A stretch of 61,690 nt of DNA, the filler included, from Basidiobolus ranarum (Eukaryota), in NCBI GenBank assembly GCA_040143965.1. It is 7 parts of 7 records of this genome, joined end to end, with 100 filler letters (N's around TTAATTAATTAA, not from the genome) between each part and the next. Parts side by side here need not be neighbours in the genome. Positions count along the whole stretch, not along the records: positions 1 to 8,739 come from JASJQH010000928.1; 6 more parts are not named here. One strand, written 5' to 3'. Below the pieces are notes generated by a model. It saw only the letters and a program-made list of their open reading frames with translations, was not told the origin of the DNA and made no database searches. How positions within the stretch are numbered: the first letter of the stretch is position 1; the number at the start of each line of letters is the position of its first letter. This document shows, in pieces, positions 3,001 to 52,976 of this stretch. Position numbers and translations under genes: made by a program.

Positions 3001-3712
3001 TTTAGATATTGCTAGAGCATCAGAAACCAGATGCATTCTGATTAAATGTTCTCAGCAAGATGGCCCAATGGAACATCGCTCATAGTATAACAATCGGCGT
3101 AGCAAGGCCATGCAAACAAGTGCCTCGACTGTTTTATTTAAAAACAAAGGAAAGCTACTTCAGACTCGGTGTTCAACCAAAGTTAGCATTCATATCACCA
3201 AAATTTAGGCTTAAATGGAAAATCCATTGGAATTGCGGTAAAATTGGAATACGCTGTATTATTATAGTACTACCTTGTTGGCCTTATGGCAAGGCTAACA
3301 ATTTCTATCACACAAGCAATACTCTAAAGTGGTATTAAAAAGTATCTTTTTGGAATAATTGGCTTGCCAACATCTCAATGGGATTACTTATAATCACAAC
3401 CACGAGTCCCACGAATGATCATCCAATCCCCCATCGGATTGAATCTTCATTCGTTAGAGTGTTTTGTCAATAAATGAAACCTGAAGTAATGGTAACCATA
3501 CATTGAAATTTACGATAGAAATTCCTCTTATGGTATTAGTAGTCGGTACTTCTTCTAGATTGGAAAAGAGTGGACTGGGGTCTGGCAGTCATATTGAGCG
3601 AATATTATCAAGCGTGGGGAGAGTTAGCAAGAAAATTGTATAAAACGACAGTGGATGTTCAATTATAAATCAGTACTGGATTACTATTAGAAACATACCA
3701 TTAGACATCATC

Positions 3713-4252
3713 ATGGTCAATCTTACATCTGCTTTATCTTGTGTGTTCTTCGCAGCCGCCACTTTCATAGCCTCTTCCGTTGAGGCCTTACCAACTCACA
3801 ATGCAGTCGCGGCTCCTAGTTCCTTAAACCAAACCGAGTTAGCTGGCGCATCTAGTAAACTCGCTAATATCAGTGTGTTGGCCTCTTGTTCTCGCAGTTT
3901 CCGCTTCAATAATGGTCAATGTACCGACTGGGCAGATGCCCGTTACTATGAGCTTACTTGCCAGCATACGGAGTGGTGGGGTGATGCTCGCACCTGGCCC
4001 AACAGTGCCCGCAATGTCAATGGATGGGTTGTCTCTAGTCAACCACGTGTCCCTTCCATCATTGTCATTCAGCCAGGCTATCAAGGCTGTGGATCAACAG
4101 GTCATGTTGCGGTTGTGGAGCGTATAAACAATGATGGAAGCGTGTACACCAGTAACTGGAACTACAAGTTCAACGGACAAGGTGGAGTCTATTCTACATC
4201 TTATGGAAACTTCAATACTGGCAATGGTGTATCCTTCCTCTGGCATCAATAG
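3713..4252 (+). CDS. Secreted CHAP-domain (Cys/His-dependent amidohydrolase/peptidase) protein, copy 1; bacterial-type putative peptidoglycan hydrolase
   Basis: 179-aa intronless ORF. Hydrophobic signal peptide (MVNLTSALSCVFFAAATFIASSVEA). CHAP motifs GQCTDW (catalytic Cys), WGDARTW, P..PSIIV, GHVAVVE (catalytic His), N.DGSVYTSNWNY. TATAAAA at 3639-3645. Confidence 0.9.
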   Translation: MVNLTSALSCVFFAAATFIASSVEALPTHNAVAAPSSLNQTELAGASSKLANISVLASCSRSFRFNNGQCTDWADARYYELTCQHTEWWGDARTWPNSARNVNGWVVSSQPRVPSIIVIQPGYQGCGSTGHVAVVERINNDGSVYTSNWNYKFNGQGGVYSTSYGNFNTGNGVSFLWHQ

Positions 4253-5731
4253 ATTAATAGTTGGCCTGGAAAGAAACTCAGATTAGTAAAAATATCTGAT
4301 ATTAAAATTCCACATCTAAAATATACAAATAATAAATTTCATTCGTATATCAAAATATCATCATCGAATCAAGTGTAATCTAACTCTTACAATGTTCTAA
4401 ATCTACTTCTAGATACCAGCTCACTCTTCTACTTTTGTAGAAGAGTAAATGTACTAGATCGAAATCAAACAAGCTAGGTTTCTTGAATCCTATTGAGATT
4501 CATTAAATTTGTGATTAGATCTAGCCGGATTGATCGCTAATCGCACATGCGGAGGCAGTACAATGTGACCATTTCTATATTCGGTCACAAGTGTACAAAT
4601 CAAGTATATCTTAAATACTCCATTATATCCCTTAGAATGACCCAGGTTAATGGAACAAAGATCGGAGATTTGTATTGGCCAGCCTGCATGGCAATTCCCT
4701 CATTTAATGTTACAAACTTTTAGTGCATAGACAAGTAGTTTTGGATTAATTAATAATTCCTTATTTGTTGAATTGAATTGAATTTTTTTAGTACAATCTG
4801 GCCAGGTGGATCGGGACCTAAACGTGTATAGGCTGAGTGAACTCATTAACATCAGTATGTGAGTTATACCATCGCTGTAAAACGCATAAACATTAGCCAA
4901 AGTGTGTATCGTAGTTTCCAAGAGTAAGCGATAATTCCAACCATTTCCTATGGGATTTTAACATCAATAGTAGTGGCACTCTTTTGGCCTCGTTATACAA
5001 CTGAATTTGTCTACATAAATTAGTTTTCAATGTACGTATAGATATAATTGTTGAAGTTTATGCTATCTTACAGTATATGATCAGCTACATGTAGAAACAT
5101 TCCAAACTTTAACTTGTCCAAATCTCGAAAAAACGATTGTAGTATTCTTCAAAACCCCATCACCAATAAAGTTCCTTTCATTTCTGAAACAATTGAATAA
5201 GCTTAGATTGAATAGGCCATCTATTCAACTTTACTATATTCAGTCTAATTTACAAACGTTGACAAGTATTAGTTACGCATCCATGTGACTTATTCTAGGC
5301 TTGGGAAGTAGACAATAGAAAGTAGTAATGGCTATAACCTTTATTTAGAATCAGATATTAACAATACTGCCATGCTTTAAATTTATTGGACTAATCGATT
5401 CATCGTTAATATAATTGGCTTACATTTGAACGCAACCTATACTTCCGCTAATCGCCTCTCAAAGCCACAACGGATTGAATCTTTATTCGTTAAAATATTT
5501 GTCAATAAATGGAGCGTAGAGTATTGGTAACCATAGAAGTATCTCTTATGGATCTCGAAGTCAGTGCATCTTTCAAAATGGAAAATGGTGGATTGGGATC
5601 TGGAAGTCACGTTGAACGATAGCCAACACACGTGGGGAAGGGAGGCAAGAAAAATGTATAAAAATGAGAGTCGAACTTCAATTAAAAACCAGTACTGGAT
5701 TACTATTAGAAACATACCATTAGACATCATC

Positions 5732-6271
5732 ATGGTCAATCTTACATCTGCTTTATCTTGTGTGTTCTTCGCAGCCGCCACTTTCATAGCCTCTTCCGTT
5801 GAGGCCTTACCAACTCACAATGCAGTCGCGGCTCCTAGTTCCTTAAACCTAACTGAGGTGGTTGGTACATCTAGTAAACTTGCTAATATCAGTGTGTTGG
5901 CCTCTTGCTCTCGCAGTTTCCGCTTCAACAATGGCCAATGTACCGACTGGGCAGATGCCCGTTACTATGAGCTTACTTGCCAGCATACGGAGTGGTGGGG
6001 TGATGCTCGCACCTGGCCCAACAGTGCCCGCAATGTCAATGGATGGGTTGTCTCTAGTCAACCACGTGTCCCTTCCATCATTGTCATTCAGCCAGGCTAT
6101 CAAGGCTGTGGATCAACAGGTCATGTTGCGGTTGTGGAGCGTATAAACAATGATGGAAGCGTGTACACCAGCAACTGGAACTACAAGTTCAACGGACAAG
6201 GTGGAGTCTATTCTACATCTTATGGAAACTTCAATACTGGCAGTGGTGTATCCTTCCTCTGGCATCAATAG
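5732..6271 (+). CDS. Secreted CHAP-domain protein, copy 2
   Basis: Same length (179 aa from ATG 5732) and motifs as copy 1. Differs only in the linker (NLTEVVGT vs NQTELAGA) and one residue near the C-terminus (GSGV vs GNGV). TATAAAA at 5657-5663. Confidence 0.9.
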   Translation: MVNLTSALSCVFFAAATFIASSVEALPTHNAVAAPSSLNLTEVVGTSSKLANISVLASCSRSFRFNNGQCTDWADARYYELTCQHTEWWGDARTWPNSARNVNGWVVSSQPRVPSIIVIQPGYQGCGSTGHVAVVERINNDGSVYTSNWNYKFNGQGGVYSTSYGNFNTGSGVSFLWHQ

Positions 6272-6620
6272 AGCTATTGTTAAATTGAAATGAAAGCCTC
6301 ATAGACATACTATCTGCTGTGCAGATGTTCAAATTCCACGAGTACAAAAGACTTGCAATAAACTAAAAATTATTTAAAAGTATCCTCATCGAATCGAATC
6401 TAACTAAACCTTGATACTTCCATAACTAATTTAACACTTACAAGGTTCTAAAATGTACTTCTTGTACTGGCCCACTCTCGTACACATATATATACTGTAG
6501 AAACTTAATTGCAGTTAATGGAAATTAGGAAATCTAGATTTTTGGAATCCTGAGATTCATTTAGAAGTTTATCATTGACCAGCAAATTATTTGGATTAAT
6601 TGGTGAATCCTTATTTGTAG

Positions 6621-6739: not shown

Positions 6740-6926
6740 ATGTAGTTGCTGCGTATCCAGTATCGAGATGAACTAATATGACTAGCGCACCAAGTGATTT
6801 TCTAGTACTAGAGTGGTTGCCTCTGGCTCTCGCGTGTACAAGTTCCACAAACAAGGTGGAATCTATTCTACATCTTATGGAAACTTCAACACTGGAAGTG
6901 GTGTATCTTTCCTATGGCATCAATAG
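6740..6926 (+). pseudogene. Third CHAP copy, internally deleted
   Basis: 6852-6926 encodes QGGIYSTSYGNFNTGSGVSFLWHQ*, the CHAP C-terminus. The upstream gttgcctctggctctcgc matches the ASCSR codons. The catalytic core between them is missing. Confidence 0.85.
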
Positions 6927-7184
6927 AGTTATTGCTAGTACAATAATAAATTTTGCTTGAGAGAAGACATGGAATGATACAATCCATGTAGATAATAATC
7001 CAGTCTTGATCTCAAGTGTATATATGGCTGGAAATAGATATCCGTAATTTGATGACCTGAGTAACGATGCTGTTATTGATACAGATTATCTCAGCGAAAA
7101 CGATTCATACTTTGGCATCTGTGTATGCAAAAAAAAAGAAAATGAGAAGTGTGAATATTGATTGTTTTAATAATAAACATTTAC

Positions 7185-7736
7185 TTAGTTTTTTCCAGGA
7201 ATGGTGAAAATAGTGCAATCGTTGAAAAATTCAGTAAGCCTGGCGGTTGCGTCAAGTGTGTCTGAAATAATCAAGATTTTGAGTTCAGGGCGAGTAACGT
7301 GAGCTTTCTTTAACAATTCAAGCAAATCCTCGGTTTCTTGAGTACGTTCGTGAGCTTGATCAATAACGACGGCCGAGTATGACTTGAAAAGAGGGTCCAA
7401 AGTTGCTTCTCTGAGAAGAGCGCCATCCGTCAAGTACTTGAGACGAGTTGAGCTGTTGGTGCGATCTTCGCCACGAATAGTATAACCAACTACAGTTCCT
7501 AATTCAGTGTTCTGTTCTTCGCTGACTCTTGTAGCAGCTGTAACTGCAGCCTTATGTTTGGTTTGAGTGACACCGATTTTATCCAACTCTGGCATCTCTT
7601 CAAGGATGTATTGAGGGATTTGAGTAGTTTTACCAGAACCTGCTTCACCAGCAATGACCAGAACGCTATATTCTTTTACAGCATCGATGATAGCTTGCTT
7701 ATGCTCGTAAGTAAGGAGAGTTTGTCTTTGGGACAT
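7185..7736 (-). CDS. Truncated DEAH/RHA-family helicase (RecA1 domain only) with degenerate catalytic motifs
   Basis: 183 aa from ATG 7736. Walker A GEAGSGKTTQIPQY; VGYTIRGED; LKYLTDGALLREA. Motif II reads DQAHER, motif Ia TQTKHKAA, motif III ISDT. Ends IPGKN* at the RecA1/RecA2 linker. Confidence 0.85.
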   Translation of the reverse strand: MSQRQTLLTYEHKQAIIDAVKEYSVLVIAGEAGSGKTTQIPQYILEEMPELDKIGVTQTKHKAAVTAATRVSEEQNTELGTVVGYTIRGEDRTNSSTRLKYLTDGALLREATLDPLFKSYSAVVIDQAHERTQETEDLLELLKKAHVTRPELKILIISDTLDATARLTEFFNDCTIFTIPGKN

Positions 7737-8039
7737 TTTGAATGTAAAAAAAGAGTGTAGAGTGAAATCTAATAAATTCTTGCCCTTTGTATATAATTCA
7801 ATCAACCGCAGCTTTGGTCATGCCGCAGCGAATGTGGCACACCCAACGTGTTTAGTCTGGAATTTATTCCCGCAAGCTAATTAAATTACGAGGTTCTCTG
7901 AACTCGCTACAAAACTGCGGACGCACACTACATCCGTATTTTATGCGACTTGTCTAAATGGTAGCCTCTTCCTTTTAATTATGGAAATAAATTGATGCAC
8001 AAGAAGATTATATTGATGAAGATTTCGAAAAGCTGGTAA

Positions 8040-8472: not shown

Positions 8473-8576
8473 GTTTACTTTTGACCTTTAGATTCTTTGT
8501 TTACTTTCGACCTTTAGATTCTTTGTTTACTTTCGACCTTTAGATTCTTTGTTTACTTTCGACCTTTAGATTCTTT
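8473..8576. repeat. 26-bp tandem repeat x4 (GTTTACTTTCGACCTTTAGATTCTTT) spanning the con-6-like stop codon
   Basis: Units at 8473, 8499, 8525 and 8551, with one mismatch in the first unit. Confidence 0.95.
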
Positions 8577-8735
8577 TTCGATGGAATCTTTGAGTGGCTT
8601 CCCAGTACGCTCTTCATGAATTTCCGATGCTTTATCCAACGACTCCTGTTGCTTTTCAGCTGACACATTCGGATTATGGGCTGCTGCCTTGAGACCTCCT
8701 TCAACATTTCCAGGGTTTTTTCCTTCGTATTCCAT
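8553..8735 (-). CDS. Conidiation protein Con-6-like small hydrophilic protein
   Basis: KNPGNVEGGLKAAAHNPNVS matches the Con-6 motif. The ATG is 4 nt from the contig end, so the start is uncertain. Confidence 0.75.
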   Translation of the reverse strand: MEYEGKNPGNVEGGLKAAAHNPNVSAEKQQESLDKASEIHEERTGKPLKDSIEKESKGRK

Positions 8736-8739
8736 TGTT

Positions 8740-8839
8740 NNNNNNNNNNNNNNNNNNNNNNNNNNNNNNNNNNNNNNNNNNNNTTAATTAATTAANNNNN
8801 NNNNNNNNNNNNNNNNNNNNNNNNNNNNNNNNNNNNNNN
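8740..8839. other. Artificial contig spacer (44N + TTAATTAATTAA + 44N)
   Basis: Identical 100-nt linker with stops in all six frames, repeated six times in the window. Confidence 0.98.
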
Positions 8840-17576: not shown

Positions 17577-17676
17577 NNNNNNNNNNNNNNNNNNNNNNNN
17601 NNNNNNNNNNNNNNNNNNNNTTAATTAATTAANNNNNNNNNNNNNNNNNNNNNNNNNNNNNNNNNNNNNNNNNNNN
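17577..17676. other. Artificial contig spacer
   Basis: 44N + TTAATTAATTAA + 44N. Confidence 0.98.
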
Positions 17677-18508: not shown

Positions 18509-19996
18509 CTAATACAGCGCTTTAAAATTCATTGTGAGATTTCGAGTCTCCATTAGTCCTAACCCCGGCCTAGTTTTGAGACGTTCGAAATGCACGCTAT
18601 TCATTGGCAACATCCAGGAAAACTTCCTCACTAACATGCTCAACACGATTCTTTGCTCGATCAGTGAGAAATTCATGCCAATACAACGGCGGCTGCCTCC
18701 ACCAAATGGCATCCAAGAGAAAAGATCATGATTAACCGTTTCATCCAAGAATCTCTCTGGCATAAATCGATACGGATTCTCCCACAGATTTGGATTATGA
18801 TGCATAGCGTAGATGTGGATGTTGGTAGGAGTTCCGATCGGAAGCGTAAACTCTCCAAACTGAACAGGCTCGGTAGTGCGACGTGGAATAATTTGTGCAG
18901 CCGATGGATTTAACCTCATGGACTCCTTTATCACTGCTGTGATGAATATAAGTGAATTCTGCTGTTGTTCAAAGGTAGGACAAACATTCTTCGCCTCGTC
19001 ACCCAATACTCTGTTGGCCTCTTCTCGCGCCTTCTGCTGATACTCAGGGTAAAGACCCAAGTAATAGATAGCGGTAGAGAGAGCGTTAGCAGTAGTATCA
19101 TGACCAGCAATGAAAAAGATGATAACATCGTTTCGAATTTCTTCAGGAGTTAGTCTTTCTTTCTCTGATTCACCAGCCTGTATCATGAGTGTCACCAAGT
19201 CAGCACTTTGAGTATCTACAGGCTTTCCGTCGCGAATTTTTTCCAATTTACTATTTATGATGCCCATGATGAATTCATTGAACTTGTTGAGCTCAGTCTG
19301 ATATCCACGGCGACCTACGAGTGGAGCATTCTCCAAGAATGGGAACACTGTATACAACGAGCTACTAATGCCTGTTAGGATAGTATTGTATAGTCTTACC
19401 ATCTCTCCCCCTTGGTTCTCGATGGAATTAAAATCGTAGTCAAAGATCACTTTTCCCAGAGCATCCAGGGTCATTCGCTGCATCAATTCCTTAACAGGCA
19501 CATGTGTACTCGACCTGTCTATTTCTGAAATCAATTTGAATACCAGTTCGCCAAAGATAGAGGTAGTCCAGGTACGATGAAATGCCGGATTAGCAACACG
19601 GCGATGTTTCCTCCACTCCTCACCATTGACGGTAGCGATATTTACACTTAGGAGCTTGGCCTGTAAAGTGTTTGGCTGCTCTCTGCTTAATATGATCTTT
19701 GGGAAGATATCACTCTTCATTAGCATGAATTTGGCATATTCCGGATTGGAGACCATCACGATCCATTTTCCAAACACGAACTGTCGAGCCACCCCTTTTT
19801 CAGTTATCACTGGTAGCACTAGCTTGTCAAAGCATTCCGAGGCATCCAGAAAGTTGATATACGCCCATATGCTTTTCCATAAAGACACTTCTGGGATGTT
19901 CTGCAGGGCTTTCGGGCATTTCACCTTATCATATAGATACCATGATATGGCCACAATAGGTGCAAATACACAGAGTGAAATTGTCAATAAAGTCAT
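18509..19996 (-). CDS. Cytochrome P450, microsomal, intronless
   Basis: N-terminal TM anchor; WRKHRR; AGHDTT; ESMR (ExxR); PERF; PFGGGSRRCIG heme loop. Second Met (19996) preferred because a TATA-like run abuts the upstream ATG at 20059. Confidence 0.95.
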   Translation of the reverse strand: MTLLTISLCVFAPIVAISWYLYDKVKCPKALQNIPEVSLWKSIWAYINFLDASECFDKLVLPVITEKGVARQFVFGKWIVMVSNPEYAKFMLMKSDIFPKIILSREQPNTLQAKLLSVNIATVNGEEWRKHRRVANPAFHRTWTTSIFGELVFKLISEIDRSSTHVPVKELMQRMTLDALGKVIFDYDFNSIENQGGEMVRLYNTILTGISSSLYTVFPFLENAPLVGRRGYQTELNKFNEFIMGIINSKLEKIRDGKPVDTQSADLVTLMIQAGESEKERLTPEEIRNDVIIFFIAGHDTTANALSTAIYYLGLYPEYQQKAREEANRVLGDEAKNVCPTFEQQQNSLIFITAVIKESMRLNPSAAQIIPRRTTEPVQFGEFTLPIGTPTNIHIYAMHHNPNLWENPYRFMPERFLDETVNHDLFSWMPFGGGSRRCIGMNFSLIEQRIVLSMLVRKFSWMLPMNSVHFERLKTRPGLGLMETRNLTMNFKALY

Positions 19997-22900
19997 TGTT
20001 GTGGATGCGAGACTTGAATGGATTGAATTGTTCTGCAGTTGGAGTATGAGAAGGGACATTATATATACACAAATGAAATCCCGATCAGTAGAGAGATTCT
20101 GTGTTTCTTCTCAATTGCTAGACATATGGCTCTATGTAGCTAGGGACAATTCGTGTTAGTTTTTCCTTGAAAGAAGCGGACATCACACGCCGAAGATCCG
20201 ATATGCATATATTACACTCTTGGACTCTCAGTCTTGGAATCAGTAAATAATCACTTCGCGCAGCTGCTTCTAGGTCTACTCTAGATGACTTGAAAGTTAC
20301 AAGAGTCAGGCCATTAAGCCTGATCCTCCATTTCTATTCAATGGTGCATAACTAGTGATGTGACTTCAATATAACTTTATATCGTTAAAACAGCTTTAAG
20401 GACGCTTACTAGCTCATGTTTGCTTGCTGAGAGACTTTGGTGGATAAATCATAATGAGAGAAATGATGGTGACTGATTGATTCATTAGATGGATAATTGG
20501 CTATTTAGTACTATAGTCCTAACGCTAGGCTTACATAGTCTACACTTACAAAATTAGAGCCCCGGTATATCAGCCACTCATTATTCAATTGAAGAATAGC
20601 AACAAAGGCCTACGAGGAACAGTACTTTAGCGCAGTTATACTTCTAGATTGTACGAAAATATTTGCGTCCTCTTGGTACAGTCAGCCAGTACCAGATAAC
20701 ATGTGAAATATCTATTTTGAAGGAGTTGTTTAAAGTGAAATAGATTAAGCTGGATGAAAATTTATCGAATAGATCAAGAATGGAGCTTGAGACAAGGTGA
20801 TTCCTGGTTTGGACATGGGAATGGTGTCCTTTAGTTAAGAACCACTTACCCTCTTTCATTTTATCGAGATAATCCATGAAAGGAGCAAAAAGTACTTTGT
20901 AGTATCGGATTACCTATTATTATGTGGATGGGTATGTAAAGGCCGTGATATGAATTATTCATCTTGCATCCGCAGACGAAGAAGTTACTGCCTGAATTTA
21001 AAATTGATTTCAGCAACCTGAGTGATGTAGCAAGAAACTATCTTAATGACCCATGATGTTTAAGAATGGTCAGTAGTCTTGGAAGATCCCGGTTTGAAAC
21101 CACCGGTACAGATGTGCAAGGGCAGTAGAGATACCATTAGATACTTCACACCTAAGCAGCAGCTCTCGCTGCTCCGCCGTTCAATCACACTGAATCGCAG
21201 CCGAAGGTATCAAATGTTCCATAGTCCAGTGATTTGATGGTAGTTGAAATTTATTTCTTGAACCATGAGTGAAACCACAATTACTTTCATACAGTCAGAT
21301 GTATTGATTGCTGATAATAATTTTGTTTGATATTCACGCTAGTACAAAGCCTCATCATGAATGCAATGCAATACAATGAACAAAGTCACTGTCGTATTGA
21401 TAAGATCTGCGGACTGTGAAATCATCTGAATATTAGTGAAATCAGGATTTATATGCGCTATTGATGGATAGAAACTGATTAGCTAGTCTCTCGACCATGT
21501 TTAAGTATCAATTTCCACCAACAAAATAGTATTTGATCGAGTTTAATTTATTTGAAGTACAGTAGCATATTTTCAAATTACTCACTTGGGGAGTATAGCT
21601 CATAACACAGGCATGAAACTAGTATCATACCTTTACTGCCATGATTAACACTGAACTTTATTCAAATTATATATACAGCTGAAGTTATGAATTCTATACC
21701 AATGTGTATCAATTGCTGTTGGTTTGGCTCGGTTTCAATTAGAGTGAAATATTGGAAATTAGGATGAGTATATACATGAGAAGAACTGGACTCAACTAGA
21801 TAGCAACAGAGATCTTAATTAGCTACTGATGGAGGGTCAGTAGACTCAAGTTCACTAGAGTAGAGGTGGCGTGGCTCAATATACTAATGGAACATACAAT
21901 GAAACTTACTTTTGAAGTATTTAATTAAGGTTACTTTCATTATAAACATTGTTGATGGAAGCTTTTTAACAGTATGGCATAAAAGTGAGCTAGCAATTTT
22001 GGTCATGGCTGGAAAGTATCTTGCATCTATATACATAGAATAGTATTGAAGCTATTCTCTAATTGGAATGCAAAGATCTCAATCGCAATAAAAATGTAGG
22101 AAGCAGCCACCAGCCTTTAAATCTGAATACATATTAGCACTGTGAGATAGCTATATCATATCTATTTGTATGGTTCCATTGCTATTGGATTACAGAGTTT
22201 AGTGACAGTTTCTTAATCGTAGGAATATATTTACTTTCACTATCTTGCTTCAAGCTCAGGTAGAGTTTCCGACAACCATGGTTATATTCCCTTGTTTGTA
22301 TCGGGGTACCAAAGGTCATATATATACATCTATACATACACAAAGACATCCAAGAATGCTTCAATTTATTAAACAAGAGTTAACCATCATAATCATCGTG
22401 ATATGTGCAGCAACCTACGCTTCGATAGCATGGTTGGATATTATTTATTTGTAAATGTAGATATCACTATGCAGTTCATGATCATCGTTCACTTACTTTT
22501 CTATCAAAGTGCAAAAAATCCAACTACCAAATCATGTGATTGAAATATACAAATGTATGCATTAAACCAATAAACTCCAGGTATATCTCCAGAAAATTTC
22601 ATCATGTCGTGAAAGGGTCGGACAAACATGACTATACAGAATCCATATCCTAATACAGTGAGTAGTGAATGTCACTATATTCAGATCAAGTATTACCGAC
22701 ATATATCAATGCATAAAGAGACAATCCTTTGCCAACATATAAATTACTTCATTAAGGTTGGAATAAAATAAATGTATTTTAGTACATAACCATCGTAAAT
22801 ATGAGTGCTTCAAGTGCCCAAGAAGGAAGAACTGAAAAACGAAAGTAGTTGAAATATTCAGTATTGACATGAAATGACCCTAGAGGCCTGATGTAGTGGG

Positions 22901-26409: not shown

Positions 26410-26509
26410 NNNNNNNNNNNNNNNNNNNNNNNNNNNNNNNNNNNNNNNNNNNNTTAATTAATTAANNNNNNNNNNNNNNNNNNNNNNNNNNNNNNNNNNN
26501 NNNNNNNNN
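26410..26509. other. Artificial contig spacer
   Basis: 44N + TTAATTAATTAA + 44N. Confidence 0.98.
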
Positions 26510-35237: not shown

Positions 35238-35337
35238 NNNNNNNNNNNNNNNNNNNNNNNNNNNNNNNNNNNNNNNNNNNNTTAATTAATTAANNNNNNN
35301 NNNNNNNNNNNNNNNNNNNNNNNNNNNNNNNNNNNNN
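35238..35337. other. Artificial contig spacer
   Basis: 44N + TTAATTAATTAA + 44N. Confidence 0.98.
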
Positions 35338-44058: not shown

Positions 44059-44158
44059 NNNNNNNNNNNNNNNNNNNNNNNNNNNNNNNNNNNNNNNNNN
44101 NNTTAATTAATTAANNNNNNNNNNNNNNNNNNNNNNNNNNNNNNNNNNNNNNNNNNNN
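44059..44158. other. Artificial contig spacer
   Basis: 44N + TTAATTAATTAA + 44N. Confidence 0.98.
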
Positions 44159-52876: not shown

Positions 52877-52976
52877 NNNNNNNNNNNNNNNNNNNNNNNN
52901 NNNNNNNNNNNNNNNNNNNNTTAATTAATTAANNNNNNNNNNNNNNNNNNNNNNNNNNNNNNNNNNNNNNNNNNNN
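52877..52976. other. Artificial contig spacer
   Basis: 44N + TTAATTAATTAA + 44N. Confidence 0.98.

What the first reader, a model, noticed from the sequence alone, without database searches (positions are those of the whole stretch)
3713..6271. Fungal, secreted, intronless CHAP peptidoglycan hydrolases: candidate horizontally acquired antibacterial effector family
Seen in sequence: two intact genes, each with a signal peptide, short linker and single CHAP domain (Cys in GQC, His in GHVAVVE). Both lack introns, have TATA boxes, and share a contig with eukaryotic genes (DEAH-like, con-6-like). Established: CHAP domains are mainly bacterial and phage cell-wall amidases/endopeptidases (SsaA, LysK, PcsB), and fungi have no peptidoglycan. 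Inference: bacteria-to-fungus transfer, addition of a fungal secretion signal and promoter, and use for killing or feeding on bacteria. From memory, WAD.RY, IIVIQPG.QG and SN.N resemble Ktedonobacteria (Chloroflexota) CHAP proteins; this donor guess is unverified.
Basis: partly seen in the sequence, partly recalled or inferred. Interest (0 to 1): 0.85.

Follow-up and report, generated by a model that had tools for sequence, protein, structure and literature searches.

The report
Bacterial-origin secreted cell-wall hydrolase genes in fungus
Two neighbouring, intact genes in a Basidiobolus-like fungus encode small secreted enzymes of a bacterial cell-wall-cutting type (CHAP) whose closest relatives outside this group of fungi are in Ktedonobacteria, so the family most likely entered these fungi by gene transfer from bacteria and then multiplied.

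Summary
Window 3713-4252 and 5732-6271 (+) are two intact, uninterrupted 179-codon genes, 97.6% identical. Each has a hydrophobic N-terminus, a linker of about 33 residues and one CHAP domain (Pfam 58.5 bits against a cut-off of 26). The Cys70 and His131 columns are conserved, and a confident CHAP fold matches staphylococcal and phage peptidoglycan hydrolases.

The surrounding genes are eukaryotic. The best hits are 40 Basidiobolus proteins (up to 83% identity), many apparently in tandem arrays. The closest named non-fungal relatives are all Ktedonobacteria or Chloroflexota, at up to 60% identity over the domain.

New here: the family is also present in Entomophthorales (Conidiobolus, Entomophthora, Massospora). 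The ML tree joins all fungal copies in one clade (100/96) placed inside the Ktedonobacteria.

AU tests do not reject the fungi as sister to Ktedonobacteria, nor two separate transfers. The Entomophthorales placement is unstable when Basidiobolus rows are left out.

The bacterial relatives are membrane-anchored; the fungal ones carry a signal-peptide-like N-terminus instead. Antibacterial or peptidoglycan-degrading function is inferred, not shown, and no expression data could be obtained. This is a new member of a known kind: a horizontally acquired cell-wall hydrolase in a eukaryote.

The parts
3384..4530 (+). Tandem repeat unit 1 (upstream flank, gene, downstream flank), alignable with unit 2 at 5420-6596
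   Evidence: flanks are 66-75% identical and the coding part 92-100% per 100 nt; repeat period 2019 bp.
3639..3644 (+). TATAAA 74 nt upstream of the ATG of copy 1 (possible TATA box)
   Evidence: The position is the same as in copy 2, but the motif is at chance frequency in the window (81 against 79 expected).
3713..4252 (+). CHAP gene copy 1 (P0001, 179 aa plus stop), intronless
3713..3787 (+). Signal-peptide-like N-terminus (aa 1-25). Cleavage after VEA is inferred from the -3/-1 rule.
   Evidence: hydrophobicity 2.27; no dedicated predictor was run.
3788..3886 (+). Linker (aa 26-58) with two N-x-S/T sequons (NQT, NIS). It holds 4 of the 5 amino-acid differences between the copies.
   Evidence: AF2 pLDDT is below 60 for most of it.
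3887..4249 (+). CHAP domain (aa 59-179). Cys70 codon is at 3920-3922 and His131 codon at 4103-4105. Asn148 and Asn150 align with Glu and Asn of the S. aureus CHAP.
4331..4336 (+). AATAAA 79 nt after the stop of copy 1 (possible polyadenylation signal)
   Evidence: Read from the sequence; not tested against chance.
5657..5662 (+). TATAAA 75 nt upstream of the ATG of copy 2
5732..6271 (+). CHAP gene copy 2 (P0002, 179 aa plus stop). An upstream in-frame ATG at 5585 is probably not used.
6357..6362 (+). AATAAA 86 nt after the stop of copy 2
   Evidence: Read from the sequence.
6837..6923 (+). Relic of a third copy: only the last 29 codons (86% aa identity). At DNA level 6837-6937 is 90% identical to 6182-6282.

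Best explanation
The two genes are real, intact tandem paralogues in a Basidiobolus-like (Entomophthoromycotina) fungal genome. Each encodes a small secreted protein made of a cleavable signal peptide, a short glycosylatable linker and one CHAP papain-like cysteine amidase/peptidase domain (Cys70, His131, Asn148/Asn150).

The family descends from the membrane-anchored CHAP cell-wall hydrolases of Ktedonobacteria (filamentous Chloroflexota) or a close relative, by an old bacterium-to-fungus transfer. Most likely there was one transfer before Basidiobolus and the Entomophthorales diverged.

In the fungus the bacterial cytoplasmic tail and transmembrane anchor were replaced by a eukaryotic signal peptide. 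Base composition drifted towards the host's. The gene then multiplied by tandem duplication, to at least 19 and 21 distinct proteins in the two public Basidiobolus proteomes. In this window the two coding regions have been kept alike by gene conversion or a recent re-duplication.

Inferred mechanism: the secreted enzyme cuts the peptide stem, or the amide bond between MurNAc and L-Ala, of bacterial peptidoglycan outside the hypha. This would weaken or lyse neighbouring bacteria in gut, dung and litter, for competition and/or nutrition.

Shown here: gene structure, domain, fold, conserved catalytic columns, fungal context, taxonomic distribution and nearest relatives. Inferred: secretion, substrate, antibacterial role, and the number and timing of transfers.
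For: Domain and fold:
- Pfam CHAP 58.5 bits.
- PDB sequence hits to S. aureus SAOUHSC_02979 CHAP (5t1q, E 2.6e-8) and S. saprophyticus CHAP (2k3a).
- AF2 model with mean pLDDT 82 and the ten-residue blocks from residue 61 on at 92 or more.
- Foldseek top hits are 5t1q (E 5e-7), the phage phi812 lytic CHAP, LysGH15, LysK and PcsB.

Conservation: Cys70 and His131 are invariant in 25 of 25 sequences. Cys70, His131 and Asn150 are at least 90% conserved in 149 sequences.

Constraint: the two copies have pN/pS 0.19 overall and 0.07 in the CHAP part, from small counts of 1 non-synonymous and 4 synonymous differences.

Fungal context: 15 of the 20 ORFs scanned in the window hit Pfam families (E at most 0.001), and none of these families points to a bacterial context. 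They include Con-6, bZIP, EFR3, RPN6/RPN7, L19e and ATP5H. There is no N run between the CHAP genes and the first two neighbours.

Distribution:
- 37 of 50 hits, plus 3, are Basidiobolus proteins. Contig lengths and consecutive locus tags point to tandem arrays.
- Entomophthora (4), Massospora (1) and Conidiobolus (1) proteins were identified.

Nearest bacteria:
- Named hits are Thermogemmatispora, Tengunoibacter, Dictyobacter and Ktedonobacteraceae.
- 74 of 77 genome loci carry Chloroflexota titles, 60 of them Ktedonobacteria.
- The best phage matches reach only 37-38% identity.

Tree: in the careful ML tree (105 rows, 120 columns) all 33 fungal rows form one clade at 100/96. Rooted on Alloscardovia, that clade sits inside the Ktedonobacteria. 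The Basidiobolus placement next to P0060 and P0061 survives removal of the Entomophthorales rows.

Shared derived state: His85 is found in 96% of Basidiobolus rows, 67% of Entomophthorales rows and 0 of 72 bacterial rows.

Architecture change: 0 of 16 bacterial relatives, 31 of 40 Basidiobolus proteins and 5 of 6 named Entomophthorales proteins have a hydrophobic N-terminus. The bacterial proteins have an internal transmembrane segment 70-150 residues in.

Amelioration: gene GC is 0.483 against 0.40-0.43 for neighbouring ORFs, and GC3 of 0.456 is within their range.

Gene conversion: flanks are 66-75% identical against 97.6% in the coding sequence, with pS 0.065.
Against:
- AU tests do not reject named Ktedonobacteria as a clade that excludes the fungi (p 0.46; p 0.37).
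- AU tests do not reject Entomophthorales grouping with the outgroup (p 0.47).
- AU tests do not reject Basidiobolus grouping with P0060/P0061 without the Entomophthorales (lnL 10.75 lower, p 0.31).
- When Basidiobolus rows are left out, the long-branched Entomophthorales clade moves to the base of the tree. The single fungal clade could therefore be helped by long-branch attraction.
- Only 120 alignment columns were available, and the outgroup is two sequences.
- Most of the 150 listed representatives are unnamed.
- The genome scan used patterns derived from this subfamily, which favours Ktedonobacteria.
- The residue aligned with the usual CHAP Glu is Asn148 and varies among relatives (N, D, A, S). 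The exact triad is therefore not settled.
- 9 of 40 Basidiobolus proteins lack a hydrophobic N-terminus. At least P0036 is annotated as partial; the others may be truncated gene models.
Confidence: 0.72

Rival explanations
1. There were two or more independent transfers from Ktedonobacteria-like donors: one into Basidiobolales and another into Entomophthorales. The apparent single fungal clade would then be a long-branch artefact.
For: - Without Basidiobolus rows, the Entomophthorales clade leaves the P0060/P0061 neighbourhood and attaches deep in the tree.
- AU does not reject Basidiobolus plus P0060/P0061 excluding Entomophthorales (p 0.31).
- Entomophthorales rows have long end branches, up to 1.8.
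- Their C-terminal third is divergent: matches end near query residue 150-158.
Against: - The ML tree joins all fungal rows at 100/96 under a site-heterogeneous model, and the constrained tree is 10.75 lnL worse.
- His85 is shared by both fungal groups and absent from 72 of 72 bacterial rows, and both have an acidic residue at position 72.
- Both share the same architecture of signal peptide, linker and C-terminal CHAP.
- The two groups are classed together in Entomophthoromycotina (established taxonomy), which makes one transfer the simpler reading.
Confidence: 0.25
2. The genes are of bacterial origin but the enzymes are not weapons. They may remove or trim peptidoglycan fragments so that an animal host does not sense bacteria or the fungus's companions, or salvage cell-wall peptides as nutrients. 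Alternatively they may act on a non-peptidoglycan amide substrate, as CHAP does in glutathionylspermidine amidase.
For: - Relatives occur in obligate insect pathogens (Entomophthora, Massospora), where dampening peptidoglycan sensing would be useful (inference).
- Foldseek also lists Gsp amidase and trypanothione synthetase-amidase CHAP domains, though weakly (E 0.02-0.06).
- No cell-wall-binding module (SH3b, LysM) was found by Pfam in any of the 12 fungal or bacterial family members scanned.
Against: - The closest solved structures by sequence and fold are peptidoglycan hydrolases.
- An N-terminus of signal-peptide type and expansion to about 20 copies per genome in a fungus that lives among dense bacteria fit an extracellular anti-bacterial or bacteriolytic role (inference).
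- Gsp-type matches are four to five orders of magnitude weaker.
Confidence: 0.2
3. The genes are bacterial contamination or a chimeric assembly rather than part of the fungal genome.
For: The domain is overwhelmingly bacterial, and gene GC (0.483) is higher than the neighbours' (0.40-0.43).
Against: - The genes lie 900-2300 bp from eukaryotic genes with no gap or N between them.
- Their flanks are AT-rich like the rest of the window.
- 40 paralogues occur in two independently sequenced Basidiobolus species on contigs up to 204 kb.
- The best bacterial identity is only about 60%.
- The N-terminus is of eukaryotic signal-peptide type and not the bacterial anchor.
Confidence: 0.01
4. The family is an ancient eukaryotic or fungal gene inherited vertically and lost everywhere except in Entomophthoromycotina. 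The Ktedonobacteria would be the recipients.
For: In the unrooted tree, fungi and bacteria are the two sides of one branch. Direction therefore depends on the root.
Against: - CHAP is a large bacterial and phage family (established; Pfam PF05257).
- Ktedonobacteria carry several deeply diverged paralogues per genome, for example six loci in Ktedonobacter robiniae, spanning several genera including Thermogemmatispora, Ktedonobacter and Dictyobacter.
- Rooting on Actinomycetota CHAP puts the fungi inside them.
- No named eukaryote outside Entomophthoromycotina appeared among the hits.
Confidence: 0.02

Closest known systems
Ktedonobacteria membrane-anchored CHAP proteins (e.g. Thermogemmatispora P0041, Dictyobacter vulcani P0058, Ktedonobacteraceae MAG P0061)
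   Same: The C-terminal CHAP domain is up to 60% identical over residues 64-178, including GQCT.WA, GHVAVVE.IN.DGSVYTSN.N and the GVSF.WH end. They are the nearest non-fungal relatives in every search.
   Different: The bacterial proteins are 270-410 aa. They have a cytoplasmic N-terminal region, one transmembrane helix and a conserved ATATAV.QDGYD stretch before the CHAP domain. The fungal proteins replace all of this with a signal-like peptide and a variable linker. They have His85 and Asp/Glu72 where bacteria have Trp and Tyr/Trp.
Staphylococcal and phage CHAP peptidoglycan hydrolases (S. aureus SAOUHSC_02979 5t1q, S. saprophyticus 2k3a, phi812 hub CHAP 9eum, LysK CHAPk 4csh, LysGH15 4olk, PcsB 4cgk)
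   Same: Same fold and the same Cys and His positions. These are the functional models for amidase or endopeptidase action on peptidoglycan.
   Different: Only 17-29% identical. They usually carry cell-wall-binding or other catalytic modules, whereas here there is a single domain. The residue aligned with their Glu is Asn148 here.
Secreted CHAP family of the oomycete Saprolegnia parasitica (Jiang et al. 2013, PMC3681718; passages read)
   Same: It is a eukaryote with a secreted, duplicated (7 genes) CHAP family that the authors consider acquired from bacteria.
   Different: It is a different eukaryotic kingdom. No donor is named there, and its relationship to the present subfamily was not tested here.
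Other horizontally acquired bacterial cell-wall hydrolases in eukaryotes: Trichomonas vaginalis NlpC/P60 (PMC6299479), ladybird beetle cell-wall hydrolases (PMC7807722), bivalve phage-type lysozymes (PMC5303276). Only the search listing and the start of each abstract were seen. Tick/mite Dae amidases and GH25 lysozymes are recalled from memory.
   Same: Same logic: a bacterial or phage peptidoglycan hydrolase is captured by a eukaryote, given a secretion signal, duplicated, and used against bacteria where tested (listing).
   Different: The enzyme families and recipients differ. In those cases activity was shown experimentally, according to the abstracts; here it was not.
Bulk horizontal gene transfer into Basidiobolus (Tabima et al. 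2020, PMC7466969; passages read)
   Same: The paper reports 806 HGT candidates (5% of genes) in B. meristosporus CBS 931.73, 61% of them intronless, with composition like host genes. The CHAP genes fit that profile.
   Different: The main text does not mention CHAP, peptidoglycan, Chloroflexi or Ktedonobacteria. It stresses gut-associated donor phyla and secondary metabolism. Its Tables S4 and S5, which may list these genes, could not be seen.

Membership tests
CHAP domain (Pfam PF05257; MEROPS peptidase family C51) | Profile match above the curated threshold | tested here: met
   58.5 bits against a cut-off of 26, E 1e-15, profile positions 6-79 of 81, for both copies.
CHAP domain (Pfam PF05257; MEROPS peptidase family C51) | Catalytic Cys at the start of the first helix and catalytic His in a beta-strand | tested here: met
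   Cys70 (GQC) and His131 (GHVAVV) are invariant in 25 of 25 sequences and at least 90% conserved in 149. They align with the same positions of 5t1q and 2k3a. The model has helix 70-82 and strand 131-138.
CHAP domain (Pfam PF05257; MEROPS peptidase family C51) | Third and fourth polar residues (Glu/Asp and Asn) 17-19 residues after the His | tested here: inconclusive
   Asn148 and Asn150 align with Glu and Asn of the 5t1q 'SESN' motif. Asn150 is at least 90% conserved. Position 148 varies among relatives (N, D, A, S).
CHAP domain (Pfam PF05257; MEROPS peptidase family C51) | Papain-like alpha+beta fold | tested here: met
   In the AF2 model the ten-residue blocks from residue 61 on average 92 or more in pLDDT. 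19 PDB matches at E<=0.001 are CHAP domains as far as listed.
CHAP domain (Pfam PF05257; MEROPS peptidase family C51) | Amidase or endopeptidase activity on peptidoglycan | not testable with these tools
   Needs zymogram and muropeptide analysis.
Horizontally transferred gene (bacterium to fungus) | Patchy distribution in the recipient kingdom | tested here: met
   Named eukaryotic hits are only Basidiobolus, Conidiobolus, Entomophthora and Massospora. Caveat: many representatives are unnamed, and only the best 150 of 962 were listed.
Horizontally transferred gene (bacterium to fungus) | Recipient sequences nested within a donor clade with statistical support | tested here: inconclusive
   The fungi are nested in the ML tree (nodes 97/78, 97/78, 48/82). 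AU does not reject Ktedonobacteria as a clade that excludes the fungi (p 0.46 and 0.37).
Horizontally transferred gene (bacterium to fungus) | Physical integration among host genes, not contamination | tested here: met
   There are eukaryotic genes on the same uninterrupted sequence, and paralogues in two other sequenced species. Read-level checks were not possible.
Secreted fungal protein | Cleavable N-terminal signal peptide | tested here: inconclusive
   The n-h-c pattern, the hydrophobicity score and the family-wide pattern (31 of 40) fit. No SignalP-type predictor was run and there is no proteomic evidence.

The most novel reading that the evidence does not exclude
A single ancient transfer of a Ktedonobacteria cell-wall hydrolase into the common ancestor of Basidiobolus and the Entomophthorales. 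This would be a rare genomic change that ties the debated Basidiobolus lineage to the insect-destroying fungi. It was then re-tooled from a membrane-anchored autolysin into a secreted enzyme. In Basidiobolus it expanded by tandem duplication and gene conversion to about 20 or more copies, as an enzymatic antibacterial arsenal that helps this fungus shape reptile and amphibian gut communities. In Entomophthora and Massospora it would help control bacteria inside insect hosts.
Probability: 0.3. Interest if true: 0.7.

Novelty: new member of a known kind. Interest (0 to 1): 0.55.

Why it matters
Fungi have no peptidoglycan, so a large secreted family of peptidoglycan-type hydrolases points to direct enzymatic interaction with bacteria.

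Basidiobolus is a regular gut inhabitant of amphibians and reptiles and an occasional human pathogen. Its known bacterial acquisitions are mostly secondary-metabolite genes (PMC7466969). An enzyme arsenal would be a second, protein-based route for shaping its bacterial surroundings.

The donor lineage is unusual. Ktedonobacteria are, from general knowledge, soil and litter dwelling filamentous Chloroflexota, whereas the earlier survey emphasised gut-associated phyla.

The presence of the family in Conidiobolus, Entomophthora and Massospora offers a possible shared marker for Entomophthoromycotina. It also offers candidate factors in insect-pathogen biology.

Small, single-domain, probably disulfide-stabilised and glycosylated CHAP enzymes made by a eukaryote could also interest enzybiotic research.

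Tried and rejected
- Own-genome search: no genome is held for this window.
I dropped the question.
- First genome-contig scan with the single protein found no relative. The alignment-based scan worked.
- Earlier findings of this scan: nothing on this genome or sequence.
- Protein atlas: only generic bacterial CHAP clusters at 0.87-0.88, below the 0.9 lead level, and no structure search. It added nothing.
- Phage donor: the best phage matches are Staphylococcus phages at 37-38% identity over about half the protein. I rejected them as the closest source within that collection.
- Accessory domains: Pfam found only CHAP in 10 longer fungal and bacterial relatives.
- Naming of the N-terminal-CHAP clade: 0 of 10 had names.
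- Search with Conidiobolus P0119 gave only 4 hits: itself, two proteins from a Conidiobolus-like metagenome contig, and one weak hit. The range within Entomophthorales is therefore still poorly sampled.
- Literature:
  - 'CHAP' (whole word) plus 'Basidiobolus' gave 0 papers.
  - 'Basidiobolus' + 'horizontal gene transfer' + 'peptidoglycan' gave 3 papers, 2 of them listed; by their titles and the passages read in one (PMC8778642) they do not concern CHAP.
  - 'Ktedonobacter' + 'Zoopagomycota' gave only community surveys.
  - The main texts of PMC7466969, PMC11291939, PMC11105155 and bioRxiv 2025.03.31.646025 do not mention CHAP or peptidoglycan.
  - Supplements were closed.
- TATA boxes as evidence of a promoter: rejected as not above chance.


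Full report
**What is in the sequence**

Window 3713-4252 and 5732-6271 (+ strand) are two open reading frames of 179 codons each.
- They lie 2019 bp apart as a direct repeat.
- They differ at 13 of 540 nucleotides and 5 of 179 residues. Four of the five amino-acid changes fall in codons 40-46 of the linker.
- Copy 2 has an in-frame ATG further upstream at 5585. This extension would bury the hydrophobic N-terminus and has no counterpart in copy 1, so 5732 is the likely start.
- A third, truncated copy survives only as the last 29 codons at 6837-6923 (86% amino-acid identity).
- No other copy was found in the window by tblastn.

Duplication and gene conversion:
- In the alignment of the two repeat units, the flanks are only 66-75% identical: about 330 bp upstream and about 250 bp downstream. 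The coding part is 92-100% identical per 100 nt.
- The proportion of synonymous differences is 0.065, far below the flank divergence.
- I read this as an old tandem duplication whose coding regions were later homogenised by gene conversion, or re-duplicated. This is an inference.
- pN/pS is 0.19 overall and 0.07 in the CHAP part. The counts are small (1 non-synonymous and 4 synonymous differences) but fit constraint on the domain.

**Domain, fold and catalytic residues**

- Both proteins match Pfam CHAP (PF05257) at 58.5 bits against a cut-off of 26.
- By sequence they match solved CHAP domains of S. aureus SAOUHSC_02979 (5t1q, E 2.6e-8) and S. saprophyticus (2k3a).
- An AlphaFold2 model built on a 149-sequence alignment has mean pLDDT 82, and the ten-residue blocks from residue 61 on average 92 or more. 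Residues 1-42 are disordered, and a helix at 44-58 precedes the domain.
- Foldseek against the PDB gives 5t1q first (E 5e-7). Next come the lytic CHAP of phage phi812, LysGH15, LysK CHAPk and PcsB. Glutathionylspermidine amidase-type CHAP domains appear only at E 0.02-0.06.
- Cys70 (GQC) and His131 (GHVAVVE) are invariant in 25 of 25 relatives.
- Cys70, His131 and Asn150 are at least 90% conserved in 149 sequences.
- The position that aligns with the catalytic Glu of the staphylococcal enzymes is Asn148 here, and it varies among relatives. The exact triad is therefore open. I could not inspect model coordinates.

**Secretion signal**

The N-terminus (MVNLTSALSCVFFAAATFIASSVEA | LP...) has a hydrophobic core and small residues at -3 and -1.
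- No signal-peptide predictor was available, so this is a heuristic reading.
- Counting proteins with a 12-residue Kyte-Doolittle mean of at least 1.7 in the first 35 residues gives 31 of 40 Basidiobolus proteins, 5 of 6 named Entomophthorales proteins and 0 of 16 bacterial relatives.
- The nine Basidiobolus exceptions include at least one annotated partial (P0036); the others may be truncated gene models.
- The bacterial relatives instead have one strongly hydrophobic segment 70-150 residues from the N-terminus, followed by a conserved ATATAV.QDGYD stretch and the C-terminal CHAP domain.
- So the architecture changed from membrane-anchored, CHAP outside, to soluble and secreted (inferred).

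**Promoter and 3' signals**

- TATAAA lies 74-75 nt before both ATGs. The hexamer is no more frequent in this AT-rich window than in shuffles (81 against 79.3 expected), so it is weak evidence.
- AATAAA lies 79 and 86 nt after the two stops (read; not tested against chance).

**Genomic context**

The window is about 38% GC throughout.

15 of the 20 ORFs scanned in the window hit Pfam families (E at most 0.001), and none of these families points to a bacterial context:
- a DEAD/DEAH-type helicase fragment at 7188-7817(-), just under 1 kb from copy 2
- Con-6 at 8553-8738(-)
- ribosomal S4/S9 (uS4), EFR3, a P450, a bZIP factor and CRAL-TRIO
- proteasome RPN6 and RPN7, ribosomal L19e and mitochondrial ATP synthase subunit D

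The twelve N runs are 44 bases each, in pairs at regular intervals of about 8.8 kb. I take them for masking and not for assembly gaps. None lies between the CHAP genes and the first two neighbours.

The CHAP genes have GC 0.483 against 0.40-0.43 for ten neighbouring ORFs. Their GC3 of 0.456 is within the neighbours' range of 0.36-0.46. This fits an old, largely ameliorated acquisition.

**Relatives in fungi**

The word-indexed search returned 50 proteins.
- 37 are from Basidiobolus meristosporus CBS 931.73 (19) and B. ranarum (18), at 83% down to about 57% identity.
- Three more B. ranarum proteins came from the exhaustive search.
- Consecutive locus tags and equal contig lengths suggest tandem arrays in those genomes too.
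- The window's organism is therefore a Basidiobolus-like fungus whose protein set is not identical to either public one.

The exhaustive HMMER search over 1.84 billion representatives gave 962 hits at E<=1e-3 and 13 at E<=1e-30.
- Twelve of those 13 are Basidiobolus proteins.
- The thirteenth (P0040) is an unnamed metagenome protein nearly identical to a Thermogemmatispora protein.

In a first tree, the sister group of the Basidiobolus clade was nine long-branched proteins.
- A look-up named six of them: Entomophthora muscae (4), Massospora cicadina (1) and Conidiobolus coronatus (1).
The two are 82% and 78% identical to the Conidiobolus protein.
- So the family spans Entomophthoromycotina.
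- No named eukaryote outside that subphylum appeared in any search. Many representatives are unnamed, however, and only the best 150 of 962 were listed.

**Relatives in bacteria**

Every named non-fungal protein near the query is from Ktedonobacteria or unclassified Chloroflexota: Thermogemmatispora, Tengunoibacter, Dictyobacter vulcani, Ktedonobacteraceae MAGs and strain brp13.
- A pattern scan of one genome per prokaryotic species found 441 confirmed stretches. Of the best 77 loci, 74 carry Chloroflexota titles (60 Ktedonobacteria, 12 'uncultured Chloroflexia' MAGs, 2 Chloroflexota). Two are Alloscardovia and one is a MAG labelled proteobacterium.
- That scan used motifs from this subfamily, so it is biased towards it. 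The unbiased ranking agrees as far as names exist.
- Ktedonobacteria carry several diverged paralogues per genome, for example six loci in Ktedonobacter robiniae.
- In Thermogemmatispora carboxidivorans the gene sits in a tandem CHAP pair next to a malate/lactate dehydrogenase gene. That is chromosomal housekeeping context and not a prophage.
- The best matches among 50,697 phage records are two Staphylococcus phages at 37-38% identity.

**Phylogeny, with results for and against**

I extracted CHAP domains with an HMM built from the first alignment. Nine fragmentary rows and seven extra members of the P0059 and P0061 clusters were dropped. Of 141 selected rows, 105 were kept after thinning Basidiobolus and bacterial rows at 85% identity.

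The careful IQ-TREE tree (LG+C20+F+G4 PMSF; 105 rows, 120 columns) gave:
- all 33 fungal rows (2 window, 22 Basidiobolus, 9 Entomophthorales-type) as one clade at 100/96
- Entomophthorales-type rows as a clade at 100/98
- Basidiobolus plus window at 61/86

The bootstrap had not fully converged (correlation 0.964).

Rooted on the two Alloscardovia sequences, the fungal clade is nested among Ktedonobacteria. Its successive sisters are an unnamed metagenome protein P0060 (97/78), the Ktedonobacteraceae MAG protein P0061 (97/78) and a Dictyobacter group (48/82).

Leaving out the Entomophthorales rows leaves Basidiobolus in the same place.

Against this:
- Leaving out Basidiobolus sends the Entomophthorales clade to the base of the tree, or between deep paralogue groups. 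This is the behaviour expected of a long branch.
- AU tests reject none of the alternatives I set up:
  - named Ktedonobacteria held as a clade against fungi plus outgroup: p 0.46, and p 0.37 with three more named rows
  - Entomophthorales with the outgroup: p 0.47
  - Basidiobolus with P0060/P0061 but without Entomophthorales: 10.75 lnL worse, p 0.31. This group was defined after seeing the tree.
- One column supports common ancestry of the fungal copies. His85 is present in 96% of Basidiobolus rows and 67% of Entomophthorales rows, and in none of 72 bacterial rows. Both fungal groups also have an acidic residue at position 72, where bacteria mostly have Tyr or Trp.

My reading: a bacterial origin from the Ktedonobacteria lineage or its immediate kin is well supported. 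One old transfer is more likely than two. Neither the exact donor node nor the number of transfers is settled with 120 columns.

**Mechanism**

By homology with characterised CHAP enzymes (named families above), the fungal proteins should act as cysteine amidases or endopeptidases on the peptide part of peptidoglycan.

Three features fit action on neighbouring bacteria, for competition, nutrition or both:
- the signal-peptide-type N-terminus, which would send the enzyme outside a cell that has no peptidoglycan of its own
- expansion to about 20 distinct proteins per Basidiobolus genome
- the life of Basidiobolus in gut, dung and litter (general knowledge and PMC7466969)

Scavenging of immunostimulatory peptidoglycan fragments in animal hosts is a reasonable alternative, especially for the insect pathogens.

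None of this was tested. No expression data could be reached.

**Comparison with what is known**

- Horizontally acquired bacterial cell-wall hydrolases are known in several eukaryotes: Trichomonas NlpC/P60, ladybird beetles and bivalves (search listing and starts of abstracts only). Tick Dae amidases and GH25 lysozymes are recalled from memory.
- A secreted, duplicated CHAP family of suspected bacterial origin was reported in the oomycete Saprolegnia parasitica (passages read).
- Massive HGT into Basidiobolus is published: 806 candidates in B. meristosporus, 61% of them intronless, with host-like composition (passages read). The main text says nothing about CHAP, peptidoglycan or Chloroflexi.
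- No paper in the held library contains both 'CHAP' as a whole word and 'Basidiobolus'.
- The proteins themselves are already in public databases as uncharacterised 'Peptidase C51 domain-containing protein'.

**Verdict**

This is a real feature, correctly read by the first stage in most respects. It is a new member of a known kind.

Three points are worth following up:
- the Ktedonobacteria source
- the Entomophthoromycotina-wide distribution
- the size of the Basidiobolus expansion

Interest 0.55.

Noticed in passing
window 6837-6923 (+): Relic of a third CHAP copy. Only the last 29 codons plus the stop remain, just after the 3' flank of copy 2. This suggests the tandem array was once longer or was broken by unequal crossing-over.
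   Followed up: partly
window 3384-3682 / 5420-5701 and 4283-4530 / 6302-6596: The flanks of the two copies are only 66-75% identical, while the coding sequences are 97.6% identical with pS 0.065. This is a signature of gene conversion or concerted evolution limited to the gene.
   Followed up: partly
window 7188-7817 (-): A 210-aa open frame holds only the N-terminal Walker A / DEAH-like (DQAHE) part of a helicase. Its Pfam DEAD score of 25.7 is just under the cut-off of 26. It may be one exon of a longer gene or a fragment.
   Followed up: no
window 18512-20110 (-): A cytochrome P450 is encoded as one uninterrupted 533-aa frame. It is intronless in a genome where neighbouring genes appear split. 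Its origin was not examined.
   Followed up: no
window 8740-8839, 17577-17676, 26410-26509, 35238-35337, 44059-44158, 52877-52976: Twelve runs of exactly 44 N occur in pairs at a regular spacing of about 8.8 kb. They look like deliberate masking and not assembly gaps. The first pair cuts into the Con-6-like gene region.
   Followed up: partly
Basidiobolus proteins P0016, P0023, P0024, P0026 (N-terminal 25-70 residues): A subgroup of paralogues carries a Cys-rich module (C-P-x-G-N-G-L-Y-C-G ... L-Y-x-C) between the signal peptide and the linker. The two of the four that were scanned (P0016, P0024) show no Pfam match beyond CHAP. It may be a binding module.
   Followed up: partly
P0001-P0008 subgroup, residues 59, 83 and 126 of P0001: The 179-aa subgroup to which the window genes belong has three extra cysteines (C59, C83, C126). 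They are absent from other Basidiobolus paralogues and from bacteria. Possible disulfides in a secreted protein were not checked in the model.
   Followed up: no
L003 841-1890 and 2413-3339 (+): Thermogemmatispora carboxidivorans has two CHAP genes in tandem. Tandem duplication of this gene therefore also occurs in the presumed donor lineage.
   Followed up: partly
Alignment A1, bacterial rows, between the transmembrane segment and the CHAP domain: A conserved motif of the form A-T-A-T-A-V-x-Q-D-G-Y-D is shared by the Ktedonobacteria proteins and missing from all fungal ones. Its function is unknown.
   Followed up: no
L077 (MAG labelled 'uncultured proteobacterium'): This is the only non-Chloroflexota, non-outgroup locus among the 77, at 52% identity to the query. 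It comes from the same sample series as several Chloroflexia MAGs, so mis-binning is possible. It was dropped from the trees because the match is partial.
   Followed up: no
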